The position numbers were made by a program, and so were the translations under genes. DNA of 64,000 bases from a virus (Duplodnaviria > Heunggongvirae > Uroviricota > Caudoviricetes): positions 128,001 through 192,000 of IMG/VR virus record IMGVR_UViG_3300033146_004404; one strand, given 5' to 3'. Positions 42,809 to 58,205 of the stretch are shown here, piece by piece (within the stretch, counting starts at the first letter, position 1; every line of letters begins with the position of its first letter). The notes beneath the pieces were generated by a model. That model ran no database searches, was not told where the DNA came from, and saw only the letters and a list, made by a program, of their open reading frames with translations.

Positions 42809-42844
42809 ATTACCTTTACTATTACCTTTACTATTATCTTTACT
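42809..42844 (-). promoter_or_regulatory. Three tandem 12-bp late-promoter motifs
   Basis: + strand ATTACCTTTACT ATTACCTTTACT ATTATCTTTACT, i.e. AGTAAAG(A/G)TAAT x3 on minus. Confidence 0.7.
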
Positions 42845-42872
42845 TGACAAAAAAAGAATAATATGTTATAAT
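42844..42872 (+). promoter_or_regulatory. sigma70-type promoter, copy 5 (DnaE part A)
   Basis: TTGACA-N17-TATAAT, consensus spacer. Confidence 0.9.
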
Positions 42873-42890: not shown

Positions 42891-44180
42891 ATGGCATATT
42901 CACATCTCCACGTCCATTCCCATCTTGGGAGTCAGCTTGATGGAATCGGAACATCGGAACAATACGCTAAATTAGCAAAAGAAATGGGACATCCATCTCT
43001 AGCAATAACAGATCACGGAAAAATGAACGGTCATTACGATCACTTCCTAGCTTGTAAAAAACATGGGATTAATCCTATATTTGGAGTTGAAGCATACGTT
43101 GAATTCGAGCTAGAACGATTTGAAGAAAAGAATGGAAAACAGAAAAGAGTTAGAAATAAGAATATGCACTTAGTCCTCCTTGCAAAGAACGAAGTCGGTT
43201 ATAAAAATCTTCTTAAGCTGAACTATAAATCTATGTCTGATGAAAAACATTTCTATTACAAGAATCATATAACCATAAAAGAACTCTTTGAAAACAAAGA
43301 AGGGATAATCGTAGGAACAGCTTGTATGGGATCTCCGTTCGCAAGACTATATAGAGACAAAAAAATAGTAGAAGCAGAGAAGTTATTTAAACTATTTAAG
43401 AATCAATTCGGTGAAGACTTCTATGCTGAGTTACAAATAAATGAAATAGATCATTCCATTGATAACTTTGAAGAAGGACAGAAATCTGTAAACGCATTTA
43501 TTTTGAGGTTAGCTAAAGAGTATGATGTTCCAGTTGTGCTTACTGGTGACGTTCATTATTCAAAAAAGGGGATGGCAAAAATACAAACACTAGCAATAGC
43601 AATCAGTAGAAAAGTAACTCTTGATGAACTTGATTGGGAACTTGAAGGAAAGAGTTTGTTTTATATGGACATTCCTGACTTTAAAAAATTCAATGAAGAT
43701 TGGGGTTATGGATATACAAATCAGCAGATCGAAGAATGGTGTGAGAACACTCAGCTTATTGCTGATAGATGTGACTTTCAATACAGAGAGAGGAATAGAG
43801 TTCTCCTTCCAACGTTTTCGGAAGATGATGATGCTTTATTAATAAAAGAAAGTATGAAAGGATTAGCTGAGAAATTAAAAGTTGAAGACTTTAAACATGC
43901 TCCAAAAGAATATAGAGAAAGATTAGCGAAAGAACTTGAGATCATATTAAGGAAGGGGTTTGCTTCATATATTATGATATTATGGGATGTGTTTAATTTT
44001 GCAAAAGAAGAAGATATAATGCGAGGTCCCGCTCGGGGCAGCGGTGGTGGTTCATTACTTTTGTATGCTCTTGATATAACAACATTAGATCCAATAAAAT
44101 ATGAACTCATCTTTGAACGTTTCTTGTCGGATCAGAGATCCGTAGATGTTGTTTATGATTGGTTTGGTGAAATAAAATAA
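42891..44180 (+). CDS. dnaE: DNA polymerase III alpha, part A (PHP domain plus start of palm)
   Basis: HLHVHS, AITDHG, GVEAY, HLVLLAKN.VGYKNL, GDVHY, RGSGGGS, LIFERFL. Confidence 0.95.
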   Translation: MAYSHLHVHSHLGSQLDGIGTSEQYAKLAKEMGHPSLAITDHGKMNGHYDHFLACKKHGINPIFGVEAYVEFELERFEEKNGKQKRVRNKNMHLVLLAKNEVGYKNLLKLNYKSMSDEKHFYYKNHITIKELFENKEGIIVGTACMGSPFARLYRDKKIVEAEKLFKLFKNQFGEDFYAELQINEIDHSIDNFEEGQKSVNAFILRLAKEYDVPVVLTGDVHYSKKGMAKIQTLAIAISRKVTLDELDWELEGKSLFYMDIPDFKKFNEDWGYGYTNQQIEEWCENTQLIADRCDFQYRERNRVLLPTFSEDDDALLIKESMKGLAEKLKVEDFKHAPKEYRERLAKELEIILRKGFASYIMILWDVFNFAKEEDIMRGPARGSGGGSLLLYALDITTLDPIKYELIFERFLSDQRSVDVVYDWFGEIK

Positions 44181-44191
44181 AGGAAGGTATA

Positions 44192-44359
44192 ATGGAAAAA
44201 GAATACACAGTGAAATGCGTTGAGTGTGGCAATAAATTTAAGGCAAGGTTTGAAGCGGATAAGCTTGATGGGTATGAAACATTAGCTTATTGCACAGAGT
44301 GTAATGACGTTAAAGAAGTTACTTTATCTGGAGCTTTTCAAGCAAAGAAAAAATCTTGA
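44192..44359 (+). CDS. Small zinc-ribbon protein (55 aa)
   Basis: Manually read MEKEYTVKCVECGNKF...YCTECNDVK..., AAGGAAGG SD; below the ORF-track cutoff. Confidence 0.7.
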   Translation: MEKEYTVKCVECGNKFKARFEADKLDGYETLAYCTECNDVKEVTLSGAFQAKKKS

Positions 44360-44384
44360 CAAAAAAAGAATAATATGCTATAAT
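44356..44384 (+). promoter_or_regulatory. sigma70-type promoter, copy 6 (helicase)
   Basis: TTGACA-AAAAAAGAATAATATGC-TATAAT. Confidence 0.9.
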
Positions 44385-44391
44385 TGAGTAT

Positions 44392-45708
44392 ATGGAAGAA
44401 ACAAAAGAAAAAATAAATGATATTATCAACACTTACTTAGATGGCTTTCAAGACCTTGGTTATGAAATAACGGAAGATATAAAGAAAGCTTTGTTGTTCG
44501 CAGAATTTTCAAAAAAGAATTTAATAATTTCTGGTTCAGCGGGAACTGGAAAATCAACATTTATAGAACTATTTAAGAAAAATTCAAAAAAGTCAGTCGT
44601 AACCCTAGCCCCCACTGGGGTTGCGGCTGTTAACGCAAACGGAGTAACCATACATTCGTTTTTTAAAATGGCAATAGGTATAGCAAACAAATATTCAGTT
44701 TCAAAAGAAGCTAAAGAAGTAGTTAATAAAGTCGATGTTATTATCATTGATGAAATCTCAATGGTTAGAGCAGATCTTATGGATGCTGTAGATTCACATT
44801 TAAGAATCCTTACAGGAAACGCTGATAAGCCTTTTGGTGGAATTAAGATAGTTGCTGTTGGAGATTTATTTCAATTGCCTCCAGTAGTTCAAAGCGGAAC
44901 TCCGGACTTTGCTTATATTAGAGATAACTTTTATTCAAAGTGGTTTTTTAGTGCGCCGGAGGTCGGTGAATTTAACGTAGTTGAATTAAAGAAGATCTTC
45001 CGTCAAAGCGAAGAACAGTTCATTAATACTTTAAATAGAATTCGTGTTGGAAAGCAGTCATGGGATGATCTCAAACTAATAAATACAAGAGTAGTAACAG
45101 AAGAGGAGTTTGGTAAAGACGGAGAAGATTATATTTATTTAGCGTCTACTAATAAGACAGCTGATAACGTAAACTCCGAGAGGTTAAAGAAAATAAATGA
45201 ACCATCGTTCTTTTTTCACTCATCTACTAAGGGCGATTACCCAAAAGGGTCTATGCCAGCTCCGGAAATAATTGAGTTAAAAAAGGGCTCTCAAGTAATG
45301 ATGCTTAGAAATATAGCAGCACACAATCTTTATAACGGCCAGGTTGGAAGAGTAATTGCTTTAGGTGAATACTTTATCAAAGTTAAATTTGGGAAAGCAG
45401 ATTATGTAATTAATAAAGAAATCTGGTTGAACAATGAATACTCGTTAGTTGATGGAAAAATACAACTGAAAGAACTTGGTTCATATACTCAGTATCCTTT
45501 AAAACTTGCTTATTCAATAACCATTCATAAAAGTCAAAGTAAAACTTATGAGAAGATTTTTATTGATTTAGGTGGCGGTGCTTTCAGTGCCGGACAGACT
45601 TATGTTGCTTTATCAAGATGCAAGACTCTTAATGGAATTGGCCTTAAGTATAAAATTGAAAAAAGAGATATAATAGTTGATAGAGTTTTAAAAGAGACTT
45701 TTCTTTGA
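44392..45708 (+). CDS. Pif1/RecD-like SF1B helicase
   Basis: GSAGTGKS, APTGVAA, TIHSFF, IIDEISM, GDLFQLPPV, YSITIHKSQ, YVALSR. Confidence 0.95.
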   Translation: MEETKEKINDIINTYLDGFQDLGYEITEDIKKALLFAEFSKKNLIISGSAGTGKSTFIELFKKNSKKSVVTLAPTGVAAVNANGVTIHSFFKMAIGIANKYSVSKEAKEVVNKVDVIIIDEISMVRADLMDAVDSHLRILTGNADKPFGGIKIVAVGDLFQLPPVVQSGTPDFAYIRDNFYSKWFFSAPEVGEFNVVELKKIFRQSEEQFINTLNRIRVGKQSWDDLKLINTRVVTEEEFGKDGEDYIYLASTNKTADNVNSERLKKINEPSFFFHSSTKGDYPKGSMPAPEIIELKKGSQVMMLRNIAAHNLYNGQVGRVIALGEYFIKVKFGKADYVINKEIWLNNEYSLVDGKIQLKELGSYTQYPLKLAYSITIHKSQSKTYEKIFIDLGGGAFSAGQTYVALSRCKTLNGIGLKYKIEKRDIIVDRVLKETFL

Positions 45709-45733
45709 CAGAAAAAGAATAATTGAATATAAT
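45705..45733 (+). promoter_or_regulatory. sigma70-type promoter, copy 7 (DnaE part B)
   Basis: TTGACA-GAAAAAGAATAATTGAA-TATAAT. Confidence 0.8.
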
Positions 45734-45769
45734 ATAATATAATAGACTTATTACCGAAGGAGATAAAAA

Positions 45770-46672
45770 TTGAAGACTTGGACTGAGCTTAAAGATTTTT
45801 GTGAAAAAAGCGAACGTTTTTTAGACTTAAGCGAAGAAGAAAAAAAAAGATATAAAAAGGAAATTGCTGTAGCAAAAAGATTTTATTCCAATAAAAGAAA
45901 TCTTTTTGACGAACTTCAAATAAAAAAGGATAGAATTGATAATAGATACATAATTCCTTTTTTATTAAAGCTTACTGACTGTATTGCCAACAAAAGACCT
46001 GCTTATATTCAGGTAAAGTCAGGAGCTTCAGGAGGGATAGACATAGACACCGATTGGCAGGGTGATGGTAGAGAGAAAATCTATAATTATCTCGTTGAAA
46101 AATATGGAATAGAAAGAGTTCTTCATGTAGGAACTTTTTCAGCTCTTGGGCCGGCATCAGCAGCAAAAGATGTTTTAAGAGCAAATAAAATTGACTTTGG
46201 TAAATCAAATGCCTTCACTAAAGTTCTTGAAAAGCAAGAAAGTTGGGAAGAGAATCTTGAGAGAATTAAAGGAACAGATCAAGCCAACTGGAGATTCTAT
46301 GAAGAGAATAAAGAAGTTCTTGAAGATGTTCCTCACTTAATTGGAAAGATAAGACAGTGTTTGCCTTGGAATCAAGATGTAGATATCATTGACGAATATG
46401 GAGTTAAAACAAAAAAGCTCATAAAGTTTATAGATCCAGCCCAGGATTATATTTCTTATATGGATAAAGATGGAAATAAACAATATACTAAAAATTATGA
46501 GGTATTCCCTTCTGGAAAGAAGAAGATATATGAAATAACTACCTCAAAAGGAAAAAAGATAAGAGCGTCTGCTAATCATAAATTTTTTTTAAGAAGTGGT
46601 GAAATTAAAAGATTAAAAGATTTAAAGAATGACGATGAAATCATCATTGATAGTAATTCCGCCTCCGTGTAA
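45770..46672 (+). CDS. dnaE: DnaE part B (palm DID motif) fused to split-intein N-half
   Basis: IDIDTDW..GREKIYNYLVEKYG..RV..VGTF...LIGKIRQ then CLPWNQ...SANHKFF (intein blocks A and B). Confidence 0.9.
   Translation: MKTWTELKDFCEKSERFLDLSEEEKKRYKKEIAVAKRFYSNKRNLFDELQIKKDRIDNRYIIPFLLKLTDCIANKRPAYIQVKSGASGGIDIDTDWQGDGREKIYNYLVEKYGIERVLHVGTFSALGPASAAKDVLRANKIDFGKSNAFTKVLEKQESWEENLERIKGTDQANWRFYEENKEVLEDVPHLIGKIRQCLPWNQDVDIIDEYGVKTKKLIKFIDPAQDYISYMDKDGNKQYTKNYEVFPSGKKKIYEITTSKGKKIRASANHKFFLRSGEIKRLKDLKNDDEIIIDSNSASV
46358..46669 (+). mobile_element. Split intein N-fragment (104 aa)
   Basis: Cys1 CLPWNQDV; SGKKKIYEITTSKGKKIRASANHKF; LKDLK..DEI; then stop. Confidence 0.9.
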
Positions 46673-46699
46673 AGGTAATGTAAACACGGAGGTGGAATT
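46655..46699 (+). promoter_or_regulatory. RBS-occluding hairpin with late promoter at its loop
   Basis: AATTCCGCCTCCGTGT / ACACGGAGGTGGAATT 16-bp stem (one G-U); GTAAAGGTAAT at 46669-46679; GGAGG in the 3' arm. Confidence 0.8.
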
Positions 46700-46702
46700 T
46701 AT

Positions 46703-47572
46703 ATGAAGTGCTTAATATGTGGAGAAGAAGTAGAGAGAAGTAGTTTTCATTTTCATTTAAAAAAACATAATATGAAAATGAAAGAGTATTATGTAAAATT
46801 CAATTTTGACTTTACGAAAAAAGATTATTTAGAAAATGAATATTGTAAAAATGAAAAATCACTGAAACAGATAACAAAAGAATGTGAAGAGAAATATAAT
46901 ATTTCAAATTTAAAAAGTACTGTACTTGATTTTGCTAAAGAATTTTATATAAAAAAAAGAACTATTTCAGGTGCTGGAAAATTGTATTTTGAAAATAATG
47001 AAATTTGGAATAAAGGGTGTACGAAAAAAGATAATGCTTCTGTAGCTTTATATTCAAAAAAGAAAAAAGAGCTTTATAAAAAAGTAAGAAAAAAACTAGA
47101 AAGTTTATCTATAAGTGAATTACTAAAGTTTAATATTCAACAGAATAAAAAAATTAGAAACATACTAAGAAAAAAGCTTATAGAAAAACAAGATAATATC
47201 TGTCCTATTTGCGAAAGCAGTTTAACAAATTTAGATAAAAGATTGCAACATATCCATCATATAGACAGAGACAATTCAAATGATACAGAAGAAAATTTAA
47301 TCGTTTTGTGTGCAAGCTGTCATACAAAATTATCTGGGCACAAACACAGACTTAAAGAACTTGATTTTATATTATCTTATGATGACTTTGTTAATAATTT
47401 AGAACTTGTTAGATATGAAATATCTAAAATAAAAAAAAATAAAGAAGATATGATGTGTCAATTAGAAAGCGTTGATAAATTTGATAAAAAAAAGTATTAT
47501 GAAAATATAAAGGAGAATGGAAAATGCTCGATAAACATATCAAAATTAAAACTGACAGAATTTATTCAATAG
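46703..47572 (+). CDS. Free-standing HNH homing endonuclease between split-intein halves
   Basis: N-terminal CLIC...H...H finger; CPIC...HIHHIDRDNSNDTEENLIVLCASCH. Confidence 0.9.
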   Translation: MKCLICGEEVERSSFHFHLKKHNMKMKEYYVKFNFDFTKKDYLENEYCKNEKSLKQITKECEEKYNISNLKSTVLDFAKEFYIKKRTISGAGKLYFENNEIWNKGCTKKDNASVALYSKKKKELYKKVRKKLESLSISELLKFNIQQNKKIRNILRKKLIEKQDNICPICESSLTNLDKRLQHIHHIDRDNSNDTEENLIVLCASCHTKLSGHKHRLKELDFILSYDDFVNNLELVRYEISKIKKNKEDMMCQLESVDKFDKKKYYENIKENGKCSINISKLKLTEFIQ

Positions 47573-47964
47573 TTGAAAAAGAAGAAGAAGAAACATATGA
47601 TATTCAAAACTTTCAAGATGATTGCTTTTTAAAAGAACCAAATTTTTTTGCTGATGGTTTTCTCGTTCATAATTCTGGAAAGCATGCTGGTGGAATCGTA
47701 ATTAGTGACAAACCAATTTATAACTATATTCCTGTTGATAGAGTTCAGGGAGAAGTTGTTACAGCATTTCCAGAAAGTGGAAGCAACACTGTTCTTGATG
47801 AGATCGGTATAATAAAATATGATATTTTAGGTATATCAATCTTGGATGTTATATCAGAAGCTATAGGTATGATAGACGAAGACATTTATTTAATTGAAGA
47901 TGACGATGGAATTCAGAAAGCGGTCCCTGCATCTTACATAGATAACATAATAAAAAAACTTTGA
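47524..47964 (+). CDS. dnaE: Split-intein C-half (50 aa, 47524-47673) fused to DnaE part C
   Basis: DRIYSI....EETYDI...PNFFADGFLVHN|SGKHAGGIVIS...IPV...GIIKYDILG; own AAGGAG SD inside the HNH gene. Confidence 0.9.
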   Translation: MLDKHIKIKTDRIYSIVEKEEEETYDIQNFQDDCFLKEPNFFADGFLVHNSGKHAGGIVISDKPIYNYIPVDRVQGEVVTAFPESGSNTVLDEIGIIKYDILGISILDVISEAIGMIDEDIYLIEDDDGIQKAVPASYIDNIIKKL

Positions 47965-47976
47965 GGTAATTTATTC

Positions 47977-49488
47977 GTGACTGATTTTGCATTATTGAAC
48001 TATAAAAAAAGAGAAAAAAAGAAAAAAATCATTGATGGCTTTTTATTAAATGCAAAGCAGGACGATAAAACACTCTTTAAGTGCTTGGTGTGTGGAAAAG
48101 AAACAAGTAAGACAATCTCTGCTTTGATTAAAAGAGGTATTGATTATAAAAAAATAGACGTAGAAAATAACGATACGATTTTTATGTGTCGAAAACATTC
48201 TCAAGAAGCTATAACTGAAAAGAAATATGGAGTTAAGAATAATTTTCAAAATCCAGCTTCAATAAAAAAGATCAAGAAAAAGAGAGAAAAAAAAAGAATA
48301 GAAAGTGGAGATCCTCTCTATTTTTTAAATCAAGGTGATCTTATCGTTTTTACTTGTGAAGTATGTGGAAAGAAAACATCCGTTCAGAAAAGAAAATACA
48401 CTAGTAATTTATGCAGAGAATGCAAGATAAAAAAGGCTAATAGAGAGAAAATTCTTCCTGTGATATTAAAAAGGCTTAAAGGCAACAATATTGAATTGTT
48501 AAAACCTTATTCTAACCAGAGAGAGTTAGAAGAAAACGTTCTTTATGATTTTAAGTGCTTAATTTGCAATAATACCTTTAAGGATCATCTTCACTCTCAT
48601 ATTCCAAGATGTCCTACTTGCTATCCAAAATATTCTTCAATTGGTGAAAAAGAAATAAAAGTTTTTATAGAGTCTTTAGGTTTTGATGTCATAGAAAACG
48701 ACAGAAAGATTCTTAGTGGCCTAGAGTTAGATATTTATATTCCGGATAAAAAAATAGCAATAGAGTTTAATGGTCTTTATTGGCATAGTGAGCAGAAAGG
48801 AAAAGATAAAAACTACCATTTAAACAAAACATTAAAATGTGCAGAAAAAGAAATTCAGTTAATTCACTTCTTTGAAGATGAATGGTATAATAAAAAAGAA
48901 ATAGTGAAATCCATTATTGCAACAAGATTGGGGATAGTAGGTAAAAGAATTTATGCTAGAAAGTGTATTATAAAAAATGTGACAAATAAAGAGGAAAGAA
49001 GATTCTTAGAAGAAAATCATATTCAGGGATATTATCCTTCTTCTATTAAGCTAGGCTTATACTATGAAGAAGAATTAGTTTTAATTTTAACTTTTGGAAA
49101 ATCACGATTTAGTAATCACGATTTTGAGTTAATAAGATTTGCTAATAAATTAAATTCTTCTGTGGTTGGTGGATTTTCTAAGCTTTTAAAATCTTTTAGA
49201 AAAGATAATAAAGGAAGCTTAATAACCTTTTCAGAGAGAAGGCTGTTTTCAGGAAATGTTTATGAGAAGAGCGGTTTCTCGTTTTTAAAAACGACCTTAC
49301 CAAATTATTACTATGTAGACGAAAACTATAATAAGAGATTTAATAGAATGAAATTTCAAAAGCATAAATTAAAGAATTTGTTAAAAGAGTACAATGAAGA
49401 ATTAACAGAGAAGGAAAATATGATAGTTAATAACTATGATAGAATTTGGGACTGTGGAAATAATTCTTTTGAAATAAAAAAACTTTAA
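47977..49488 (+). CDS. Homing endonuclease, zinc ribbons plus Vsr/DUF559-like nuclease (Hef-like)
   Basis: Several CxxC; S.GEKEI..FI, LELDIYIP...IAIEFNGLYWHS, IYARKC, NHIQG, RIWDCG. Confidence 0.8.
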   Translation: MTDFALLNYKKREKKKKIIDGFLLNAKQDDKTLFKCLVCGKETSKTISALIKRGIDYKKIDVENNDTIFMCRKHSQEAITEKKYGVKNNFQNPASIKKIKKKREKKRIESGDPLYFLNQGDLIVFTCEVCGKKTSVQKRKYTSNLCRECKIKKANREKILPVILKRLKGNNIELLKPYSNQRELEENVLYDFKCLICNNTFKDHLHSHIPRCPTCYPKYSSIGEKEIKVFIESLGFDVIENDRKILSGLELDIYIPDKKIAIEFNGLYWHSEQKGKDKNYHLNKTLKCAEKEIQLIHFFEDEWYNKKEIVKSIIATRLGIVGKRIYARKCIIKNVTNKEERRFLEENHIQGYYPSSIKLGLYYEEELVLILTFGKSRFSNHDFELIRFANKLNSSVVGGFSKLLKSFRKDNKGSLITFSERRLFSGNVYEKSGFSFLKTTLPNYYYVDENYNKRFNRMKFQKHKLKNLLKEYNEELTEKENMIVNNYDRIWDCGNNSFEIKKL

Positions 49489-49499
49489 AGGAAGTAAGC

Positions 49500-49724
49500 A
49501 TGAGCAAGAAAAAGAAAACTGTCAAAGAAGAGATTGCCTCTAAAAATGAAGTAGAAGTAGAAGTGAAAGCTCCTGAAGTAGAAGTAGAAGTAGAAGTGAA
49601 AGCTCCTGAAGTAGAAGTAAAAGTGAAAGCTCCTGAAGTAGAAGTAAAAGTGAAAGCTCCTGAAGTAGAAGTGAAGCAGACGCCAAAGTCTAATTACGAA
49701 ATTAGAACTGGAGTAAAGAAGTAA
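49500..49724 (+). CDS. Small low-complexity repeat protein (EVEVKVKAP)n
   Basis: 74 aa, AAGGAAG SD, followed by a terminator; ~27-bp tandem DNA repeats. Confidence 0.65.
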   Translation: MSKKKKTVKEEIASKNEVEVEVKAPEVEVEVEVKAPEVEVKVKAPEVEVKVKAPEVEVKQTPKSNYEIRTGVKK

Positions 49725-49758
49725 AAAAAGAGTTGGTTTAAAAACCAACTCTTTTTTT
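49724..49758 (+). terminator. Intrinsic terminator
   Basis: AAAAAAGAGTTGGTTT..AAACCAACTCTTTTTT. Confidence 0.8.
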
Positions 49759-49760
49759 AC

Positions 49761-49789
49761 TTGACAAAAAAAGAACAATATGGTATAAT
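49761..49789 (+). promoter_or_regulatory. sigma70-type promoter, copy 8
   Basis: TTGACA-AAAAAAGAACAATATGG-TATAAT. Confidence 0.9.
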
Positions 49790-49808
49790 GTAATATAAGG
49801 AGAAAAAA

Positions 49809-50027
49809 TTGGCTATAAAAAACAAAGAAGTAATGGGGCTAATTAACCAAAAAACAAAAGAGATGGAAAAGCATCTTAATAGTATTGAAGAAGAATTAAA
49901 AAAAGATGAAGATCGATTTAGTAAAGCAGCTGTGTCATTAAGTGTTGGTAAAGTTATGAAACTTCATCAAGATATAGCTTTTTTTCTCGGCGTTCATGAT
50001 GACAATCCAAAATACCTAGGCAACTAG
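49809..50027 (+). CDS. Hypothetical early protein
   Basis: TTG start with TAAGGAG SD. Confidence 0.65.
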   Translation: MAIKNKEVMGLINQKTKEMEKHLNSIEEELKKDEDRFSKAAVSLSVGKVMKLHQDIAFFLGVHDDNPKYLGN

Positions 50028-50075
50028 AGTTTATCGTGCTAACTCTAAATTTTTTTATGACGTAAAGATAAAGTA

Positions 50076-52318: not shown

Positions 52319-52350
52319 AGATAATTATATAAAAAAGTAAGGATTATATA

Positions 52351-53814
52351 ATGACTTTAATAGAAGAGATTAGAAGAAACTCTGGGGTTGAGTTAAATGA
52401 GACAATTCATGGACGATTAACAATAAGAGCTATAAAAAAGATTCAGAAAGAAGTTGATAAAATGTATTCTAAGGAAGCAGCTTCCTTAGACTCTAGTTCC
52501 AGTAAAGCTGATAAAAAAGATCTTGAATATTTTGGAATTTTTAGAAGAAGAGTTAGCGAAGTAGTGATAGAGCTTGAAACCCTTGATAAGAAGACTAATT
52601 CATCAAGAGGATTTGAGAGAAGAATGAATAAAGAGAAATTCAAATCTCTTGAAACTAAATATTCTGCTTTAATTTCTGCTTCAAGACATATGAAGAAATC
52701 AAGAAAGTTGAAAATATTAGGGGTTCTAGTTCTAACTTCAGGAATAAGTATGTATATAGCCACCAGAATTGGTGTTGATCTTCCTAATCCTGGTGGCTTT
52801 AATGCGTGGATAAATATGTTATTAGTTGGTGGTGGAATGGGGGCTCTTGGATCGTCGGATTTGAAAAACATGCAAAAAAACGAGGAAATGGATAAAGCCC
52901 TTGTAAGGCTAGTATCAGAAGAGCTTGAGAAAAAGTCTAAGGGAGACTATAAAAAAAAGAGCAGTAAATTAGATGAAAGCGTAAGTGATAAGGTTGAAAG
53001 TTCAAAGAAAAGGATCTTTAGAAAAATAAGAATAGCAGTTGAGCTATCACGAAAAAAACGTTCAAAGAAGTTTTTTGCTGGCTTGTATAAAATATTGAAA
53101 AAGAAAGGTCAGCAAGAAGAAAAAATAGATGAAGCTTTAATAACTAAGGCTGATATTAAAATGCTTTTCTGGGGACATAATTCCCCAGAAGAAACTAAAT
53201 CAGTTAATAAAATGACTAAAGATATTTTACGTATTAGCTTTAAAGAGATAAAGAATATAGATAAGATAGAAAAATCTGTAGATAAACTTTTGAGTCTACT
53301 TATTAAGAATGAATATGATAAACAAGATGAGAAAGATTACAAAGAAATACAGAAGGTCTTTAGAAAAAATAAAATAAAAATTGAAAGTGTTATAGGTGGA
53401 GATTCTGATGCTCAAGGAGTTCATCAGTTAGAATCTAAAAAAACAGTTTTTTCTGTAGATATAACAAAGAATAGAGAAATAGTAAAATCTACTATTATTC
53501 ATGAATTAACGCATAAGAAACAGTCAGAGCTCTTAAAGAAATACGCCCCAAGAACTTGGAAACGTCTTTGGATGAGAATAAATGACAAAGATTATCACGA
53601 TATTGCAATGGAAGTAGGTGCTTTTCATGAAGAGTATGTTTATTTAATAGAGAAGATGGAAAAAGCTGACAAGAAAACAAAAAGAGTATTATCAGCTTTT
53701 TTAATAGAAGAGATTTTCTACAGAGATAACTTAAAGGACAATATTTTGAGGGACTATCCAAAAAATGATCCTGTAGTAAAATTTATAAAGAGAGTTAAAG
53801 TAATAAAAATATAA
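52351..53814 (+). CDS. Leader-family protein: coiled coil, two hydrophobic helices, C-terminal HExxH zincin-like domain
   Basis: MTLIEEIRRNSGVELNE; IIHELTHKKQ...Y....MEVGAF; late motif at 52315. Confidence 0.65.
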   Translation: MTLIEEIRRNSGVELNETIHGRLTIRAIKKIQKEVDKMYSKEAASLDSSSSKADKKDLEYFGIFRRRVSEVVIELETLDKKTNSSRGFERRMNKEKFKSLETKYSALISASRHMKKSRKLKILGVLVLTSGISMYIATRIGVDLPNPGGFNAWINMLLVGGGMGALGSSDLKNMQKNEEMDKALVRLVSEELEKKSKGDYKKKSSKLDESVSDKVESSKKRIFRKIRIAVELSRKKRSKKFFAGLYKILKKKGQQEEKIDEALITKADIKMLFWGHNSPEETKSVNKMTKDILRISFKEIKNIDKIEKSVDKLLSLLIKNEYDKQDEKDYKEIQKVFRKNKIKIESVIGGDSDAQGVHQLESKKTVFSVDITKNREIVKSTIIHELTHKKQSELLKKYAPRTWKRLWMRINDKDYHDIAMEVGAFHEEYVYLIEKMEKADKKTKRVLSAFLIEEIFYRDNLKDNILRDYPKNDPVVKFIKRVKVIKI

Positions 53815-53826
53815 GAAGGGAATATA

Positions 53827-54210
53827 ATGCTAGACATAGATAAAGAAGTGCTGAATGAGAAGTATAATAATGGAGACATGGAATACTTTTTTAGTAAAGC
53901 AGAAAAAATTGCTGACTTCTTACTAACTAGAAACTATAAAGTTTTTGATAGCGAAAAAAGAGCCGATATGGTTCAAGAGTGCCTTGAAAATCTTTGGAAG
54001 AAACAACTCCAAGGAAAGATAGATGGATCTAAAAACCTAATGGCTTTCATTTGGAAAAATTCAGATTTTAGGATAAAAGAGATATTCAGAAAAGAGAATA
54101 ACAGGAACAGAATTGCTCCTTTTATTTCATACGATAATGAAGAATTTGAGTTTCTTAAGGGAATCGGCAGCGAGAAGTATAATAAAGAATTCTTTGAAAT
54201 GCTTGCTTGA
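53827..54210 (+). CDS. Putative late sigma factor (sigma region-2 only, T4 gp55-like)
   Basis: EKIADFL...DMVQECLENLWK......SKNLMAFIW.....IKEIFRKE resembles sigma region 2 / gp55. Confidence 0.6.
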   Translation: MLDIDKEVLNEKYNNGDMEYFFSKAEKIADFLLTRNYKVFDSEKRADMVQECLENLWKKQLQGKIDGSKNLMAFIWKNSDFRIKEIFRKENNRNRIAPFISYDNEEFEFLKGIGSEKYNKEFFEMLA

Positions 54211-54212
54211 TC

Positions 54213-54321
54213 TTATTCTCTCCTTGTAAAGATAAAGGAGAGAATAATTATTTTCTCCCTGTAAAGATAATATAAAGGAGAGAATAATTATTTTCTCCCT
54301 GTAAAGATAATATAAAGGAGA
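54213..54321 (+). repeat. Three tandem 34-40 bp hairpin units, each with late motif and SD
   Basis: TTATT(C/T)TCTCC(T/C)T-GTAAAGATAA(TATA)-A(A)GGAGAGAATAA repeated at 54213, 54248 and 54288. Confidence 0.9.
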
Positions 54322-54325
54322 AGCT

Positions 54326-55027
54326 ATGACCTTAAGAAAGAAGATAGAAATGACTTCTATCAATGAAGAAAATGAGTATTTAGTAGAAGGAATTCGATTC
54401 TTCAAAACTTCAAAAAAAATCACTTCATATATAAAAAAAATAGAAAAAAAGAATACCAACGGATCTCTTGATGGCCTAATAGAGCGACTTGAAAGAGTAT
54501 CTAAAAACTTTGAAGTCGCCGAAAGAATGCACCAAACTGGTAGAAAAACTGAAGCAAAACAATTATATTTACAGTACAAAAAAGATAATATTTTATTAAT
54601 GACTGCTCTAAATAAAGAATCAACTAAGAAAATATTAGTAAGACTAGGAATAGGATTAATTGTATTACAAGTTCTTTTAAGTATGACTACCGGAATTGGT
54701 TTATATGAAAGATTATTTATGAGAGGAGCATCGACAGCAGCAAGAATGGCTGGAAGATCAGGAGCTTTAGTTTCAACTGAAGTTCTTAGCGATAATCTTC
54801 CTGGCTCATCAGGGGCTCCTTCTTTAGAATCCCTTGACGCATCGCAACTCGTACTAAACAATGAAATAAAAAACTTAAAGAAAGATGTAGGTTTTTCTAA
54901 AGATGCAATAAAAGACAAAGCTAAAGAACTTGCAGCTCTTGAGAAGTTTGAAAAAGCACTAAAAAAGTTTAATAAAGCAAATGGAAAAGGACTAAGCATC
55001 TTAGATAAGATATTAGGTAGAAAATAA
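54326..55027 (+). CDS. Late membrane-helix protein, paralogue of the next gene
   Basis: LVEGIRFFKTSKKI..YIKKIEKKN..G..D.LI..L; hydrophobic ILVRLGIGLIVLQVLL. Confidence 0.7.
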   Translation: MTLRKKIEMTSINEENEYLVEGIRFFKTSKKITSYIKKIEKKNTNGSLDGLIERLERVSKNFEVAERMHQTGRKTEAKQLYLQYKKDNILLMTALNKESTKKILVRLGIGLIVLQVLLSMTTGIGLYERLFMRGASTAARMAGRSGALVSTEVLSDNLPGSSGAPSLESLDASQLVLNNEIKNLKKDVGFSKDAIKDKAKELAALEKFEKALKKFNKANGKGLSILDKILGRK

Positions 55028-55062
55028 TTTAATCTGTAAAGTTAAGTATATAAATAATAACA

Positions 55063-55797
55063 ATGGAGAAAACTATGAATTTAATGGAAGAAATTACAAG
55101 TAATGCTGGTGTAGAGTATCTTGAAAAATCTATTTCCCTTGAAGAAGATTTAAAAAATCCAGACAACTTCTATATAACAGAAGGTCTTGTGTTTTTTAAA
55201 ACTTCTAAGAGATTAGAGAAATATATCAAAAAACTTGAGAAAAAGAATAAAGACGGAGCTATTGATATTTTGATAAACAAGCTAAAAGACACACGAGCTA
55301 ATTTTGTCAAAGTTGAAGCTATGCACAAAAACGGCGAAAGAAAAAAAGCTAAAGAACTATACAAGAAGCTAAGAACTGATAACGTAGGAATAGTTCGAAT
55401 GATGAGAAAAGATTCTATGAAAAAAGCTTTAATAACTGCTGGTGTTGCAGGATTAGCTCTTACAGCAGTAGGATTTGCTGTTTATGGAATGGGCGGATTT
55501 GGTATAGCTGGAGCAAAAATTGCTTCAGGCGTAGGTGCATTAAAAGGCAAGGCTGCAGAAGGAGCAGGTGCATTAAAAGGCAAGGCTGCAGACGTATTTG
55601 GAAAAGGCGCTGAAGCCCCAGGTGTTAGAACTGGATTTGGCCAAGATGTAGGCAACAAAGCTTATCAGGGAAGAAAAATTTTAGGCGCTAATAAAATTAG
55701 AACATTAGAAGCTATTCCTGCGACTCCTTCTGATTCTCAGTACTTAAAAAATATGGAGAAAATGCAAGCAGTTATTTCTGGTCATCGAAACGTTTAA
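55063..55797 (+). CDS. Leader-family membrane-helix protein
   Basis: MNLMEEITSNAGV; ITEGLVFFKTSKRL..YIKKLEKKN; G/A-rich hydrophobic segment; GALKGKAA repeat. Confidence 0.7.
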   Translation: MEKTMNLMEEITSNAGVEYLEKSISLEEDLKNPDNFYITEGLVFFKTSKRLEKYIKKLEKKNKDGAIDILINKLKDTRANFVKVEAMHKNGERKKAKELYKKLRTDNVGIVRMMRKDSMKKALITAGVAGLALTAVGFAVYGMGGFGIAGAKIASGVGALKGKAAEGAGALKGKAADVFGKGAEAPGVRTGFGQDVGNKAYQGRKILGANKIRTLEAIPATPSDSQYLKNMEKMQAVISGHRNV

Positions 55798-55821
55798 GAT
55801 ATAGATCAACTAGATAATTAA

Positions 55822-55850
55822 TTGACAAAAAAAGAATAATATGTTATAAT
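55822..55850 (+). promoter_or_regulatory. sigma70-type promoter, copy 9 (DnaE part D, leaderless)
   Basis: TTGACA-N17-TATAAT, ATG 6 nt downstream. Confidence 0.9.
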
Positions 55851-55856
55851 TCTTAT

Positions 55857-58205
55857 ATGAGAATACTAAGAAAAATAACAAAACGAGAATTGAAAGATCA
55901 TCTGTATGAACTTAATACAGATGATCTTAGTCTTTATAAGGAAGCTAATAACCCTAATTCAATTGGAATCTTCCAATTGAATGGCGCTCTTGCTAGTGAG
56001 ATTATAAAGAAAGTTAGACCTTCATGCTTCGACGAAATAAATGCTGTGTCTGCATTCGCCAGACCAGGAACCTCAAGCTTCGTAGAACAATACGTAGAAA
56101 ACAGAGAAACAAAAAAATCTCCTTATTCAAATCAAGTAGCTGACTTGCTTACTGAAACAAACAGTATTTGTTTATATCAGGAACAAGCCATGTCTATTTT
56201 TAACAAGATAGGTGGGTTCTCACTCGAAGAGTGCGACGGAATCAGAGGTCTTATGAAAAAGCTTGGAAAGGCAGATAAGAAAAAAGAAGATCTTGATAGA
56301 TGGAATGTTATCATAGCTCAGTTTAATAAAGGCGCAGTTGAAAAAGGCATGTCAATCAAAGATGCTAAAATGATAGCAGCCGACCTTTTGAAAATGAGTT
56401 CTTATAATTTTAACAAGTGTTTCTCTGGCGACATGGTTATAGATAAAGATAATTCTACTGGCTGGGTTCCTACTATAGAAGAAATGTATCTTACAAGAAA
56501 CGATAGAGAGTGGGCCAAAAATAACGGGCATGATTTTCTTCATTATAAGTATAAAACAAAGGGGTATGTCTCTGGATTTTCTTTACAGGAAGATGGAAAG
56601 CTCTATAAGAATAAAATAAAAAATATTTATTTTCAAGGTAAAAAAGATGTTTATAGAATAACTCTTGAAAACGGAAAGATGATAGAAGTCACTGATAATC
56701 ATAGGTTTCCGGTAATAATTGAAGGCGAAGTAGAATATAAAAGTATTGATTCTGGATTATCTATCAATGACTCTCTTTTATCTAACGATGGATATGAGAT
56801 AACGGATTTTAAAGGAAAATATAATTTTACAAAAAAAAATAATGAAACAAGAAAATTTAAAACTGCAGTTTACTATGGAAGTGGAGAAAAAAATACTGGT
56901 TATATAAATGGTGAGTCTATTAAATTTAAAGAGAATAGAAAAATTCTTCTAGAACAAGCTGAAAATATTTGTCCTATTTGCGGAAATAATATAAATAGAA
57001 AAGAATGCCATCATATCGATGGCAATAGATACAATAACGAACTTGAAAATCTTATAGTCCTTTGTCCTTCTTGCCATAAAAAAGAAGATTATAAAATTGG
57101 CAGAAATAGAAAAGGAGATAAGGGGAAAATTACATCTTTATCTAAGATCGTTTCCATTGAAAAGATCGGTGAAAAAAATACGTATGATGTCGAAATGAAC
57201 GCACCTTTTCATACAGTTTCTGTAAATGGAATAGTTGCTCACAATAGCCACAGTACAGCATATGCTTATATAGCGGCACAGACACTTTACCTCTCATATT
57301 ATTTCCGTAAGTATTTTTATGCTTCTGTTCTTCACTATGAAGTTGGAAGAGATAAGTACTTAATAGAGAGATTGAAAGCGGTTAAGAAACAAGGCTTTAA
57401 CATTCTTCCTCCAAACATCAATAAGTCAAAAGTAGCAATCTCTCCAACTGGAGATGACAATATTGTTTTTGGCTTATTCGATATTAAAGGAGTTGGTGAA
57501 GTTCCTGCAACTACAATAGTTTCACTACAGCCATTCGGTTCATTTGAAGATTTCTTAATAAGAATTCTTGGGCAGAAAGTGTCAGTAACGGTAATAAAAG
57601 CACTGATTGGAGTTGGAGCTTTTGATGAGATTTATAACCTTGATAGAAAAAGACTGATCGAAACTTTTGATATTTATTGGAAAAATAAAAAGAGTACGAA
57701 AGTACCAGAAAAGCTTTTAGCTGTCTGGGAGGCCGCTCAGGAAGAAATCAGGGCAATTCCTGACATGACCGCTTCCATTGAAGAACTTAGAGATTTAGAA
57801 AAGAAGTACTTTGGGTTCAATTTTTTCTTGAGTCCATTCAACGAAAAATTTATTGATGCTGTTGATTTAATGGTAACTAAGGGAATGATCTATAGAAACT
57901 TTGAAGTTATTAAAACTGGATCTATGAAGGTTCCAGCAATAGTTAGCGGCATAAGAATACTTAATGACAGGAACGGAAATGAGATGGCATTTCTTGAGCT
58001 TGAGGATATTGAAGGTGAATCAATAAGTATTCCTATCTTTCAAAGTTTCTGGAAAGTATTGAAAGCAAGATTTATTCAGGGAAAAGTTCATATGATAAAT
58101 CTTTATTACAATAAAGAACAAGAGCAGATAATGTTTGGAAGTAAAAGGTTCATAAAGAAAGAAACAGAAATATCAAGACTTGTGAAACGATTAGATAATC
58201 TTTGA
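55857..58205 (+). CDS. dnaE: DnaE part D (fingers, HhH, OB fold) with cis intein
   Basis: GIFQL, A..RPG, LYQEQ.M, YNFNK|SHSTAYA, ILPPNINKS, FGL..IKGVG, OB-fold NGNEMAFLELED. Confidence 0.95.
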   Translation: MRILRKITKRELKDHLYELNTDDLSLYKEANNPNSIGIFQLNGALASEIIKKVRPSCFDEINAVSAFARPGTSSFVEQYVENRETKKSPYSNQVADLLTETNSICLYQEQAMSIFNKIGGFSLEECDGIRGLMKKLGKADKKKEDLDRWNVIIAQFNKGAVEKGMSIKDAKMIAADLLKMSSYNFNKCFSGDMVIDKDNSTGWVPTIEEMYLTRNDREWAKNNGHDFLHYKYKTKGYVSGFSLQEDGKLYKNKIKNIYFQGKKDVYRITLENGKMIEVTDNHRFPVIIEGEVEYKSIDSGLSINDSLLSNDGYEITDFKGKYNFTKKNNETRKFKTAVYYGSGEKNTGYINGESIKFKENRKILLEQAENICPICGNNINRKECHHIDGNRYNNELENLIVLCPSCHKKEDYKIGRNRKGDKGKITSLSKIVSIEKIGEKNTYDVEMNAPFHTVSVNGIVAHNSHSTAYAYIAAQTLYLSYYFRKYFYASVLHYEVGRDKYLIERLKAVKKQGFNILPPNINKSKVAISPTGDDNIVFGLFDIKGVGEVPATTIVSLQPFGSFEDFLIRILGQKVSVTVIKALIGVGAFDEIYNLDRKRLIETFDIYWKNKKSTKVPEKLLAVWEAAQEEIRAIPDMTASIEELRDLEKKYFGFNFFLSPFNEKFIDAVDLMVTKGMIYRNFEVIKTGSMKVPAIVSGIRILNDRNGNEMAFLELEDIEGESISIPIFQSFWKVLKARFIQGKVHMINLYYNKEQEQIMFGSKRFIKKETEISRLVKRLDNL
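56418..57245 (+). mobile_element. Intein with HNH endonuclease (276 aa) at the FNK/SH site of DnaE
   Basis: CFSGDM start; TDNHRF; CPICG...HHIDGNRYNNELENLIVLCPSCH; ends TYDVEM.APFHTVSVNGIVAHN/S. Confidence 0.95.

What the first reader, a model, noticed from the sequence alone, without database searches (positions are those of the whole stretch)
42891..58205. Replicative DnaE fractured into four genes; only one of three junctions is intein-spliced and the active site is shared across pieces
Seen: four ORFs carry successive DnaE motifs over 15 kb, separated by unrelated genes. A (42891-44180) has PHP, RGS and FERFL..R. B (45770) has DID. C (47524) has HAGG and KYDILG. D (55857) has fingers, HhH and OB fold. 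A, B and D each have their own copy of the 29-bp promoter. Known: E. coli DnaE uses D401/D403/D555 for catalysis, and RGS plus R390/R396 for dNTP binding. Here those map to B (DID), C (KYD) and A (RGS, Arg pair). B and C are joined by a split intein, but A/B and C/D show no intein or intron signatures. Inference: the enzyme is a non-covalent heterotrimer A + (B-C spliced) + (D spliced) that needs two protein-splicing events. All pieces are intact and co-regulated, which argues against decay.
Basis: partly seen in the sequence, partly recalled or inferred. Interest (0 to 1): 0.93.

Follow-up and report, generated by a model that had tools for sequence, protein, structure and literature searches.

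The report
Phage DnaE polymerase in three pieces
An uncultured jumbo phage encodes its only detectable DNA polymerase (DnaE type) as four genes that should mature into three separate proteins sharing one active site, a layout conserved across a large clade of related phages and later invaded by inteins and homing endonucleases.

Summary
Four + strand ORFs carry successive DnaE (Pol III alpha) segments in order, and no second DnaE or family A/B polymerase was found on the 201 kb contig.

The heterotrimer reading is supported by comparison. Relatives with 49-79% identical A pieces keep the A|B and C|D breaks at the same residues. In them, B-C is one intein-free gene and D has no intein, with exactly the predicted splice junctions. 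All pieces are under purifying selection. No intron or intein lies at A/B or C/D.

Additions:
- Standalone A proteins form a family of hundreds of clusters on contigs up to 259 kb.
- A and B overlap by a duplicated palm segment of about 100 aa with complementary decay. A keeps RGS and the Arg pair. B keeps DxD.
- A and BC have fused or split more than once.
- A complex model scores 0.90 against 0.00 for controls, possibly through likeness to solved DnaE.

The promoter is a general early promoter. Iyer et al. 2021 described a minimal Pol III alpha split at the same boundary, so I rate this a new variant of a known kind. The scan had already noted the duplicated-palm idea on this same DNA.

The parts
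42844..42872 (+). Early sigma-70-type promoter (TTGACA-N14-TGnTATAAT) upstream of A
   Evidence: Exact pattern match, one of 10 in the window against 0.15 expected.
42891..44180 (+). DnaE piece A (429 aa): PHP domain plus the palm N-part (NTP-binding: R382-G383-S384, R410, R416). It ends in a 13-aa tail (44139-44177) that is a degenerate copy of the catalytic strand.
   Evidence: Pfam PHP 2e-33 and DNA_pol3_alpha profile positions 3-99. RGS, R410 and R416 are invariant in 48 family members. The tail consensus is ..R[ST]PDVV[YF]D[YW]FGE.
44392..45708 (+). PIF1-like helicase gene between A and B, with its own promoter at 44356-44384. The ATG lies 8 nt after the -10 box.
   Evidence: Pfam PIF1 2.3e-29. 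Also present between A and B in L005 and L008 but absent in more distant relatives.
45705..45733 (+). Promoter upstream of B (perfect -35 and -10 hexamers, 17-nt spacer, TG out of register)
   Evidence: Repeat family D3/D5. Conserved in L005 and L008.
45770..46357 (+). DnaE piece B, extein part (196 aa). Residues 1-88 are a degenerate duplicate of the palm N-part. Catalytic D91 and D93 (IDIDTD) sit at 46040-46048, followed by the thumb region up to GKIRQ.
   Evidence: Pfam DNA_pol3_alpha profile positions 103-193. Homology of the N-part comes via P0080 (profile 3-260) and hhalign at E 2.2e-5 against 0.13 for the reversed control.
46358..46672 (+). Split-intein N-half (104 aa, starts CLPW, block B SANH) and the stop codon
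   Evidence: Pfam Intein_splicing 6.3e-9. Related to the N-part of D's intein at E 5e-6. The same allele occurs in P0018.
46659..46695 (+). Hairpin (11-bp arms) spanning B's stop codon and covering the GGAGG ribosome-binding site of the HNH gene
   Evidence: Read directly from the sequence. Dassa et al. 2009 (PMC2677866) describe the same feature for endonuclease genes in fractured genes.
46703..47572 (+). Free-standing HNH homing endonuclease gene between the intein halves. It overlaps the start of C by 49 nt.
   Evidence: Pfam HNH 1.4e-4. PHROG HNH endonuclease families. 48% identical over 54 aa to the HNH inside D's intein, E 1e-12.
47524..47673 (+). Split-intein C-half (50 aa, ends VHN, +1 Ser), with its own AAGGAG ribosome-binding site
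   Evidence: Translation and upstream DNA. The same allele occurs in P0022.
47674..47964 (+). DnaE piece C, extein part (96 aa): SGKHAGG, catalytic K98-x-D100 (KYD, D100 at 47821-47823), and a conserved C-terminal tail
   Evidence: Pfam DNA_pol3_alpha profile positions 207-260. K and D are invariant in BC proteins and the tail motif IYLIEEDGI.K.VP.SYI is conserved.
47977..49488 (+). Free-standing homing endonuclease gene immediately after C. It is absent at this place in relatives.
   Evidence: phrog_3339 homing endonuclease 3.2e-117. The C-D gap is 0.8 kb in L005 against 7.9 kb here.
55822..55850 (+). Promoter upstream of D. The ATG lies 7-8 nt after the -10 box, so a leaderless mRNA is predicted.
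   Evidence: Exact pattern match. Promoter and spacing are conserved in L005 and L008.
55857..56417 (+). DnaE piece D, N-extein (187 aa): finger domain up to FNK
   Evidence: Pfam DNA_pol3_finger 2.7e-27, profile positions 17-152.
56418..57245 (+). Contiguous HNH intein in D (276 aa; C1, block B TDNH, HNH core, ends AHN, +1 Ser)
   Evidence: Pfam Intein_splicing ending at residue 463, plus HNH. The intein-free allele FNK|SHSTAYAY occurs in L005.
57246..58205 (+). DnaE piece D, C-extein (319 aa): rest of the fingers, HhH domain and a C-terminal OB-like region
   Evidence: Pfam HHH_6 1.3e-16. The OB fold was not confirmed by Pfam.

Best explanation
The phage makes a full-size C-family (DnaE-type) DNA polymerase from four genes that mature into three polypeptides held together without covalent bonds.

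Maturation (inferred):
- A (429 aa) is used as translated.
- B and C are joined by trans-splicing of a canonical split intein into a 292-aa B-C protein.
- D removes a 276-aa HNH intein in cis and becomes 506 aa.

The active site is composite:
- A supplies the PHP domain and the NTP-binding half of the palm (RGS, R410, R416).
- B-C supplies the three catalytic carboxylates (D91 and D93 from B, D100 from C), the KxD lysine and the thumb.
- D supplies the fingers, HhH and the C-terminal region.

The A|B-C and B-C|D breaks are ancestral traits of a large clade of uncultured, tubulin-encoding jumbo phages. The inteins and homing endonucleases are later invaders.

At the A/B break the two proteins overlap by a duplicated palm unit of about 100 aa with complementary decay. 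A's copy keeps GS and the Arg pair but lost the second Asp. B's copy lost GS and the Args but keeps DxD. The dead copies (A's tail and B's N-part) most likely serve as the docking surface.

Shown here: the anatomy, conservation of the break points, purifying selection, the intein-free alleles, and the absence of introns or inteins at the two breaks. Inferred: splicing activity, assembly, the composite active site and the replicative role.
For: - Domain order runs across the four ORFs.
- There is a single DnaE set and no PolA or PolB hit on the 201 kb contig. SSB, helicases, Mre11/Rad50-like proteins, ligase, FEN and a DnaB-like gene lie around it.
- The same break points occur in L005, L008, the P0236 contig (258.6 kb), the P0178 contig (203 kb) and L011, with different genes between the pieces.
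- Intein-free alleles have exactly the predicted junctions.
- About 100 of the 120 best hits to A are standalone proteins of 405-441 aa, down to 44% identity. At least 8 clusters at 50% identity are standalone BC proteins of about 290 aa.
- Invariance is complementary: RGS, R410 and R416 in A; D-x-D and K-x-D in BC.
- dN/dS is 0.06-0.11 for A, 0.17-0.25 for BC and 0.04-0.15 for D.
- Natural fused A+BC proteins keep both the tail and the N-part. Their model superposes on Taq and E. coli Pol III alpha (2HPI, E 1.6e-36, TM 0.64).
- Fused and split forms are interleaved on the tree.
- Complex model of L005 A + BC: score 0.90, best of 3 controls 0.00. That mark was reached by 58 of 80 solved complexes and 2 of 110 mismatched pairs. 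The runs agree in at least 89% of contacts and the partner's pLDDT is at least 81. The interface includes A 382-385 and 416-428 and BC 81-101 and 243-251. These are halves of a protein whose structure is solved, so the pass may reflect that likeness.
Against: - There is no biochemical or expression evidence.
- The contig is estimated 80% complete, so another polymerase could lie in the missing part.
- No beta-clamp gene was detected.
- The complex model may pass from memory of solved DnaE structures, and D was not included in it.
- dS is saturated (above 1), so the dN/dS values are approximate.
- B's N-part is only weakly constrained (dN/dS 0.2-0.57). The tail and the stretch before DxD are low-confidence in the single-chain model.
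- The duplication homology is moderate: hhalign local E 2.2e-5 at Prob 76, global P 3.5e-4.
Confidence: 0.8

Rival explanations
1. B-C plus D form the polymerase on their own, using B's own degenerate palm N-part as a structural element. A is only an accessory PHP proofreading or pyrophosphatase subunit, and its palm fragment does not reach the active site.
For: B starts with a recognisable copy of the whole palm N-part, so BC and BCD proteins contain a topologically complete palm. A's PHP ligand-like residues are invariant (H7, H9, D17, H42, E67, H93, C145, D220, H222).
Against: B's copy has lost the GS motif and both arginines in every member, whereas these are invariant in A across 46-83% identity. 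The complex model puts A 382-385 and 410-416 at the interface with the DxD and KxD strands. A polymerase-beta-like nucleotidyltransferase without a GS motif would be unprecedented (established knowledge of the fold).
Confidence: 0.1
2. The A/B or C/D pieces are joined covalently after all, by an unrecognised mechanism: an atypical short split intein, a trans-splicing intron or translational bypass.
For: A and C end in conserved short tails, and B has an N-terminal extension. Atypical split inteins with very short N-halves exist (own knowledge). A group I intron does sit in B of the relative L008.
Against: - There is no HINT match in A's tail, B's N-part, C's tail or D's start.
- There is no Cys/Ser/Thr-plus-HN junction logic.
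- B's N-part is modelled as helices.
- Natural fused proteins retain both tail and N-part in one chain, so these segments are not removed.
- Rfam found no intron at the four junction flanks, even with short-query filters that did find the L008 intron (against 75).
- Each piece has its own promoter and start.
- The pieces lie 1.6 and 7.9 kb apart.
Confidence: 0.04
3. The pieces are decaying remnants of a polymerase gene broken by mobile elements, or an assembly artefact. Replication relies on another enzyme.
For: The region is crowded with homing endonucleases and inteins. The contig is about 80% complete.
Against: - All frames are open.
- dN/dS is far below 1.
- Catalytic residues are invariant.
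- Identical break points occur in independent assemblies from many samples, at 49-79% identity.
- No other polymerase family was found.
Confidence: 0.02

Closest known systems
Minimal split DNA polymerase III alpha of 'group 2.2' jumbo phages (Iyer, Anantharaman, Krishnan, Burroughs, Aravind 2021, Viruses 13:63, PMC7824862; read)
   Same: A phage Pol III alpha palm is divided into separate proteins at the boundary between the NTP-binding subdomain and the Mg2+/template-binding subdomain, and is predicted to reconstitute one catalytic enzyme.
   Different: That version is described as minimal, with no PHP or other Pol III domains. It is in two pieces encoded far apart and accompanies a family B polymerase. 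Here the enzyme is full size (PHP, palm, thumb, fingers, HhH) and in three pieces, and no other polymerase was detected. The break carries an overlapping duplicated segment, and inteins have been added on top. Sequence relatedness between the two sets was not tested.
Fractured genes: split intein halves with a free-standing homing endonuclease gene between them (Dassa et al. 2009, NAR 37:2560, PMC2677866)
   Same: The B / HNH / C arrangement has all the parts: IntN ending the first gene, a free-standing endonuclease gene whose ribosome-binding site is masked by a hairpin, and IntC starting the next gene. That paper lists three metagenomic DnaE loci of this kind.
   Different: Those loci have one intein-mediated break each. 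Here the same polymerase also has two breaks with no intein, plus a contiguous intein.
Cyanobacterial split DnaE (Wu, Hu, Liu 1998; Caspi et al. 2003; cited in PMC2677866)
   Same: A replicative DnaE is encoded in separate genes and joined by a naturally split intein.
   Different: The cyanobacterial case has a single break at another site, no endonuclease gene, and a covalently restored full-length protein. Here two of the three breaks stay non-covalent.
Phage Aeh1 NrdA-a/NrdA-b 'genes in pieces' (Crona et al. 2011, NAR 39:1381, PMC3045599)
   Same: An essential phage enzyme is split into two genes and reassembled without RNA or protein splicing. Terminal tails at the break are needed for function, and the active site is assembled from fragments.
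   Different: That break was made by insertion of the mobE endonuclease gene, and its tails come from the insertion. Here the A/B tails are degenerate duplicates of the enzyme's own palm segment, and the break is older than any particular inserted gene.
Contiguous phage and bacterial DnaE (for example Enterococcus phage VPE25, 1288 aa; gut phage contig MT835501, 1153 aa; Taq 2HPI, E. coli 2HNH)
   Same: Same domains in the same order, and the same catalytic motifs. The summed length of the mature pieces (429+292+506 = 1227 aa) is in the same range.
   Different: These are single polypeptides with no duplicated palm segment.

Membership tests
C-family DNA polymerase, DnaE type (Pol III alpha) | N-terminal PHP domain | tested here: met
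   Pfam PHP 2e-33 in A. Invariant H7, H9, D17, H42, E67, H93, C145, D220 and H222 in 48 A proteins. Reading these as the nine metal ligands is from my own knowledge.
C-family DNA polymerase, DnaE type (Pol III alpha) | Pol-beta-like palm with a GS motif, DxD and a third Asp | tested here: met
   All motifs are present and invariant, but they are spread over A (RGS, R410, R416), B (D91, D93) and C (K98, D100).
C-family DNA polymerase, DnaE type (Pol III alpha) | Finger domain and HhH domain | tested here: met
   DNA_pol3_finger 2.7e-27 and HHH_6 1.3e-16 in D.
C-family DNA polymerase, DnaE type (Pol III alpha) | C-terminal OB fold | tested here: inconclusive
   No Pfam OB hit in D at E <= 0.01. 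The relative P0037 has only a weak tRNA_anti-codon hit (0.026).
C-family DNA polymerase, DnaE type (Pol III alpha) | Catalytic core on one polypeptide | tested here: not met
   Three mature polypeptides are predicted. The breaks are conserved in relatives.
Fractured gene (split intein plus free-standing homing endonuclease) | IntN with Cys1 and block B; IntC ending HN followed by a Ser/Cys/Thr nucleophile | tested here: met
   CLPW...SANH in B and ...VHN|S in C. Pfam Intein_splicing 6.3e-9.
Fractured gene (split intein plus free-standing homing endonuclease) | Endonuclease gene between the halves, with a regulatory hairpin over its ribosome-binding site | tested here: met
   HNH ORF at 46703-47572. 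Hairpin at 46659-46695 covering GGAGG.
Fractured gene (split intein plus free-standing homing endonuclease) | An intein-free allele with the predicted ligated junction exists | tested here: met
   L005 BC and eight other BC clusters read GKIRQ|SGKHAGG or close variants across the junction.
Fractured gene (split intein plus free-standing homing endonuclease) | Trans-splicing activity | not testable with these tools
   This needs co-expression of B and C and detection of the 292-aa product.
Intein or intron at the A/B and C/D breaks | HINT domain with splice-junction residues, or a group I/II intron core | tested here: not met
   No HINT hit outside the two known inteins. No Rfam intron in short-stretch scans of all four flanks, although the same scan found the L008 intron at 65 bits. 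Fused natural proteins keep both tails.
Minimal split Pol III alpha of jumbo phages (Iyer et al. 2021) | Split between the NTP-binding and Mg2+-binding palm subdomains | tested here: met
   The A/B break lies between FERFL..R and DxD.
Minimal split Pol III alpha of jumbo phages (Iyer et al. 2021) | Minimal architecture without PHP or other Pol III domains, alongside a family B polymerase | tested here: not met
   PHP, finger and HhH domains are present. There is no PF00136 hit on the contig.

The most novel reading that the evidence does not exclude
The A/B break arose from a tandem duplication of one palm unit (NTP-binding helices plus the catalytic strand) followed by complementary decay. 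Neither A nor B-C can then form an active site alone, and the two dead copies have become a dedicated docking module. Because that module tolerates being either a linker or a chain end, lineages flip between fused and split forms. This would be a natural, evolutionarily stable three-chain Pol III alpha with an obligate inter-subunit active site, serving as the sole replicase of a widespread clade of jumbo phages.
Probability: 0.5. Interest if true: 0.78.

Novelty: new variant of a known kind. Interest (0 to 1): 0.72.

Why it matters
- It would show that a full-size replicative C-family polymerase can work as three non-covalently assembled chains, with the dNTP-binding and metal-binding halves of the active site on different proteins. 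This is directly testable by reconstitution.
- It offers an unusually readable example of gene fission by duplication and complementary decay, with fused, two-piece and three-piece relatives all available for comparison.
- The clade is also a rich source of natural inteins at motif-level sites (RG|S, GKIRQ|S, SLEE|C, FNK|S), and relatives of the window's DnaE-borne split intein are abundant.
- Annotation pipelines that discard 'fragments without an intact active site' will miss this polymerase in many large phage genomes.

Tried and rejected
- Megablast of the 16.5 kb region against deposited phages found no match.
- tblastn of A and BC against deposited phages found only contiguous DnaE at under 38% identity. 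The two I checked, VPE25 and the gut contig MT835501, are unsplit.
- The first Rfam scan of 20 kb and the 11 kb scan of L008 found no intron. The 11 kb scan was a false negative for L008, because a 261-nt query then gave RF00028 at 65 bits. I therefore rescanned the window's junction flanks as short stretches, and all were negative.
- I considered an atypical split intein at A/B (13-aa tail plus an 85-aa N-part) and rejected it. There is no terminal Asn or nucleophile, the N-part is helical, and both segments are retained in natural fused proteins.
- Direct BLASTP of A's C-terminus against B's N-terminus paired only the tail with the DxD strand (E 0.14). Profile methods were needed.
- My first promoter pattern had the wrong spacer and found nothing.
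- The look-up of sequencing runs: none was listed and no RNA holder was listed. RNA-level joining could therefore not be tested with reads, and read laying was not used.
- The PolA/PolB search in larger relatives failed because only L008's 61.8 kb record is held; L012, L009 and L011 were not searched.
- Binding of D to B-C was not modelled, because the single complex job went to A + BC.

Full report
**What is there**

The window is bases 128001-192000 of a 201 kb IMG/VR viral contig with about 32% GC, estimated 80% complete. Pfam assigns consecutive parts of DnaE (Pol III alpha) to four + strand ORFs:
- A (42891-44180): PHP plus palm profile positions 3-99.
- B (45770-46672): palm positions 103-193 plus an intein N-part.
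- C (47524-47964): palm positions 207-260.
- D (55857-58205): finger positions 17-152, an intein with an HNH domain, then HhH.

The genes between the pieces are:
- a PIF1-like helicase between A and B;
- an HNH endonuclease gene between B and C;
- between C and D, a homing endonuclease (phrog_3339, 3e-117), a second endonuclease-like ORF, an ATP-dependent ligase and several unknown ORFs.

The contig holds only this one DnaE set and gives no hit to family A or B polymerases. The surroundings form a replication and recombination module: gp32-like SSB, an intein-bearing helicase, Mre11/Rad50-like proteins, FEN and tubulin, with a DnaB-like gene just outside the window.

**The promoter**

The 29-bp element is TTGACA-N14-TGnTATAAT, a consensus extended -10 sigma-70-type promoter. 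It has ten + strand copies in the window against 0.15 expected. These lie upstream of A, PIF1, D and several unrelated ORFs. B has a copy with perfect hexamers. The claim that A, B and D each have a promoter is therefore true, but it is a general early-gene promoter and says little about specific co-regulation. The promoters of B and D are conserved in two relatives. D's ATG lies 7-8 nt after the -10 box in all three, which predicts a leaderless mRNA. C has its own AAGGAG site inside the end of the HNH gene.

**The two inteins**

B's extein ends at GKIRQ and is followed by a 104-aa IntN (CLPW..., block B SANH). C begins with a 50-aa IntC ending VHN, with Ser at +1. An 11-bp-arm hairpin spans B's stop codon and covers the GGAGG of the HNH gene. 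This is the 'fractured gene' arrangement of Dassa et al. 2009, who also listed three metagenomic DnaE loci of that kind.

D carries a contiguous 276-aa HNH intein between FNK and SHS.

The free-standing HNH is 48% identical over its nuclease core to the HNH inside D's intein (E 1e-12). B's IntN also matches the N-part of D's intein (E 5e-6). The B/HNH/C arrangement therefore looks like a broken copy of the same kind of intein that is still whole in D.

**Relatives settle the main question**

| Relative | A | Between A and BC | BC | D |
|---|---|---|---|---|
| L005 (A 74% identical) | 429 aa, same end | small ORF, PIF1 | 295 aa, one intein-free gene, GKIRQ\|SGKHAGG | intein-free, FNK\|SHSTAYAY |
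| L008 | same breaks | includes PIF1 | group I intron between SGASGG and IDIDTD (RF00028, 65.1 bits, E 1.3e-16) | split intein plus endonuclease gene at SLEE\|C |
| P0236 contig, 258.6 kb (A 49%) | 421 aa | 34-nt spacer | 291 aa | 513 aa, no intein |
| P0178 contig, 203 kb (A 60%) | 424 aa | guanylate kinase, ligase, two ORFs | 291 aa | 510 aa, no intein |

These relatives share the Mre11/Rad50 ... tubulin synteny. The A|B-C|D division is thus a stable trait of a phage lineage, and the inteins, the intron and the endonuclease genes are later additions.

**How widespread it is**

- Searching with A returns 977 clusters at E <= 1e-20 within the length range searched. About 100 of the best 120 are standalone proteins of 405-441 aa, down to 44% identity, on contigs up to 259 kb.
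- An exhaustive search with the intein-free BC finds at least eight 50%-identity clusters of standalone proteins of 285-297 aa. It also finds B-type and C-type halves carrying the same split-intein allele as the window.
- Two other architectures exist. A+BC is fused in one chain of 708-714 aa (P0006, P0011, P0014 and others). BC+D is fused in 839-940 aa proteins that start exactly where B starts (P0037, P0080). The P0037 contig has a separate 461-aa A followed by a LAGLIDADG gene.
- The A/B break is therefore the more widespread of the two.
- No deposited cultured phage in the collection shows the split. The nearest deposited homologues are contiguous.

**No hidden covalent join**

- No HINT match exists outside the two inteins.
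- Short-stretch Rfam scans of all four junction flanks are negative, whereas the same kind of scan detects the L008 intron.
- The natural fused proteins contain A's tail and B's N-part in one continuous chain, so these segments are not spliced out.
- Each piece has its own promoter and start codon.

**Selection and active-site logic**

Between the window, L005 and L008, dN/dS is 0.06-0.11 for A, 0.17-0.25 for B-C and 0.04-0.15 for D. dS is saturated, so these values are approximate.

In 48 A proteins, R382, G383, S384, R410 and R416 are invariant. In nine BC proteins, the DxD aspartates and the K-x-D are invariant. By the standard alignment to E. coli DnaE, these correspond to R362/G363/S364, R390/R396, D401/D403 and K553/D555. 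That mapping rests on established knowledge of the family and was not recomputed here. The NTP-binding and metal-binding halves of one active site are thus each conserved on a different chain.

**An overlap, not a clean cut**

B's first ~88 residues are not novel sequence.
- P0080's N-terminus matches the whole Pfam palm profile (positions 3-260), and B's N-part aligns to it in one continuous alignment.
- A profile-profile comparison of B N-parts with A C-termini gives local E 2.2e-5, against 0.13 for the reversed control. The global score is 22 against a maximum of 14 in 40 column shuffles.

B's copy lacks GS and both arginines.

Conversely, A's conserved tail (..R[ST]PDVV[YF]D[YW]FGE) lines up without gaps with the canonical PDxDxDF strand, with the second Asp replaced by Val.

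So one palm unit is present twice, with complementary decay. The tests here support it at moderate strength.

**Fusion and fission**

On a quick maximum-likelihood tree of A parts, rooted on contiguous DnaEs, all split and fused forms make one clade (SH-aLRT 98). One fused pair branches first. Five other fused forms are interleaved with split ones, so at least two changes are needed. This is what would be expected if a covalent link at this junction is functionally neutral. The tree is a short search with long outgroup branches, so the order of events remains tentative.

**Structure predictions**

- The fused P0006 model (pLDDT 72.5, pTM 0.63) superposes on Taq, E. coli and M. tuberculosis Pol III alpha (best 2HPI, E 1.6e-36, TM 0.64). 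The tail and the stretch before DxD are low-confidence, and B's N-part is modelled as helices.
- The complex of L005 A with L005 BC scored 0.90, and the best of 3 controls scored 0.00. That mark was reached by 58 of 80 solved complexes and 2 of 110 mismatched pairs. The runs agree in at least 89% of contacts and the partner's pLDDT is at least 81.
- The confident interface includes A's RGS (382-385), R410-R416 and the tail (416-428). On BC it includes the N-part (35-67), the DxD strand (94-101) and the KxD strand (243-251).
- These are halves of a protein whose structure is solved, so the pass may come from that likeness. It supports the geometry of a composite site but does not show binding.

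**Comparison with what is known**

- Split inteins in DnaE and fractured genes are known.
- Non-covalent reassembly of a phage enzyme split at its active site, with tails at the break, is known for Aeh1 NrdA.
- Most relevant, Iyer et al. 2021 reported a minimal Pol III alpha in 'group 2.2' jumbo phages that is split at the same subdomain boundary. It lacks PHP and the other domains and accompanies a family B polymerase.
- Two surveys of bacterial C-family polymerases do not report a non-intein split. One of them discarded fragments without an intact active site.
- What appears new here:
  - a full-size DnaE in three non-covalent pieces as the only detected polymerase of a large phage clade;
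  - the duplicated-segment overlap at the A/B break;
  - the repeated fusion and fission;
  - the density of mobile elements at motif-level sites.

**Verdict**

I rate the finding a new variant of a known kind. The main open points are biochemical: splicing, assembly and the composite active site. A second open point is whether a complete genome holds any other polymerase.

Noticed in passing
L008:10262-10463: A 202-nt group I intron (RF00028, 65.1 bits, E 1.3e-16) interrupts B of a relative exactly between SGASGG and the catalytic IDIDTD codons. It has a U.G pair at the 5' splice site and a terminal G. An 11 kb Rfam scan missed it and a 261-nt scan found it.
   Followed up: yes
L008:12713-15523: In this relative D is itself fractured. 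A split intein lies at SLEE|C, a different site from the window's FNK|S intein, with a 294-aa endonuclease gene between the halves.
   Followed up: partly
proteins P0244, P0260 (relatives of A): Some A-family members of 471-476 aa end in an intein N-half inserted inside the RGS motif (GRG|C...). That makes a further fracture site and implies DnaE in more than four genes in those phages.
   Followed up: partly
window:27684-29669 and 30006-32396: There are two more intein-bearing genes in the same replication module: a 661-aa ORF with an Intein_splicing domain, and a ResIII/Helicase_C helicase carrying a LAGLIDADG intein.
   Followed up: no
window:61486-62508: A tubulin/FtsZ-family (PhuZ-like) gene lies downstream of the DnaE region. 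A tubulin gene sits at the syntenic place in a 258.6 kb relative.
   Followed up: no
window:44356-44394 and 55822-55859: The start codons of PIF1 and D lie 7-8 nt after the -10 box with no Shine-Dalgarno sequence, which predicts leaderless mRNAs. For D this is conserved in L005 and L008.
   Followed up: partly
window:54213-54310: There are three tandem copies of a 35-40 nt unit with inverted-repeat character (TTATTTTCTCCCTGTAAAGATAA...AGGAGAGAATAA), just before the ORF at 54326.
   Followed up: no
window:49514-49683: A 27-33 nt tandem repeat inside the 74-aa ORF at 49500-49724 encodes a reiterated Glu/Val/Lys-rich peptide.
   Followed up: no
window:50076-50696: A 206-aa endonuclease-like ORF (phrog_681) is built of three 204-nt internal repeats, each with zinc-ribbon-like Cys/His motifs. 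It may be a fragment of a larger homing endonuclease.
   Followed up: no
window:51002-52318 versus L012:11865-13169: The ATP-dependent DNA ligase gene lies between C and D in the window but between A and BC in the 203 kb relative. The genes filling the DnaE gaps are shuffled among lineages.
   Followed up: no
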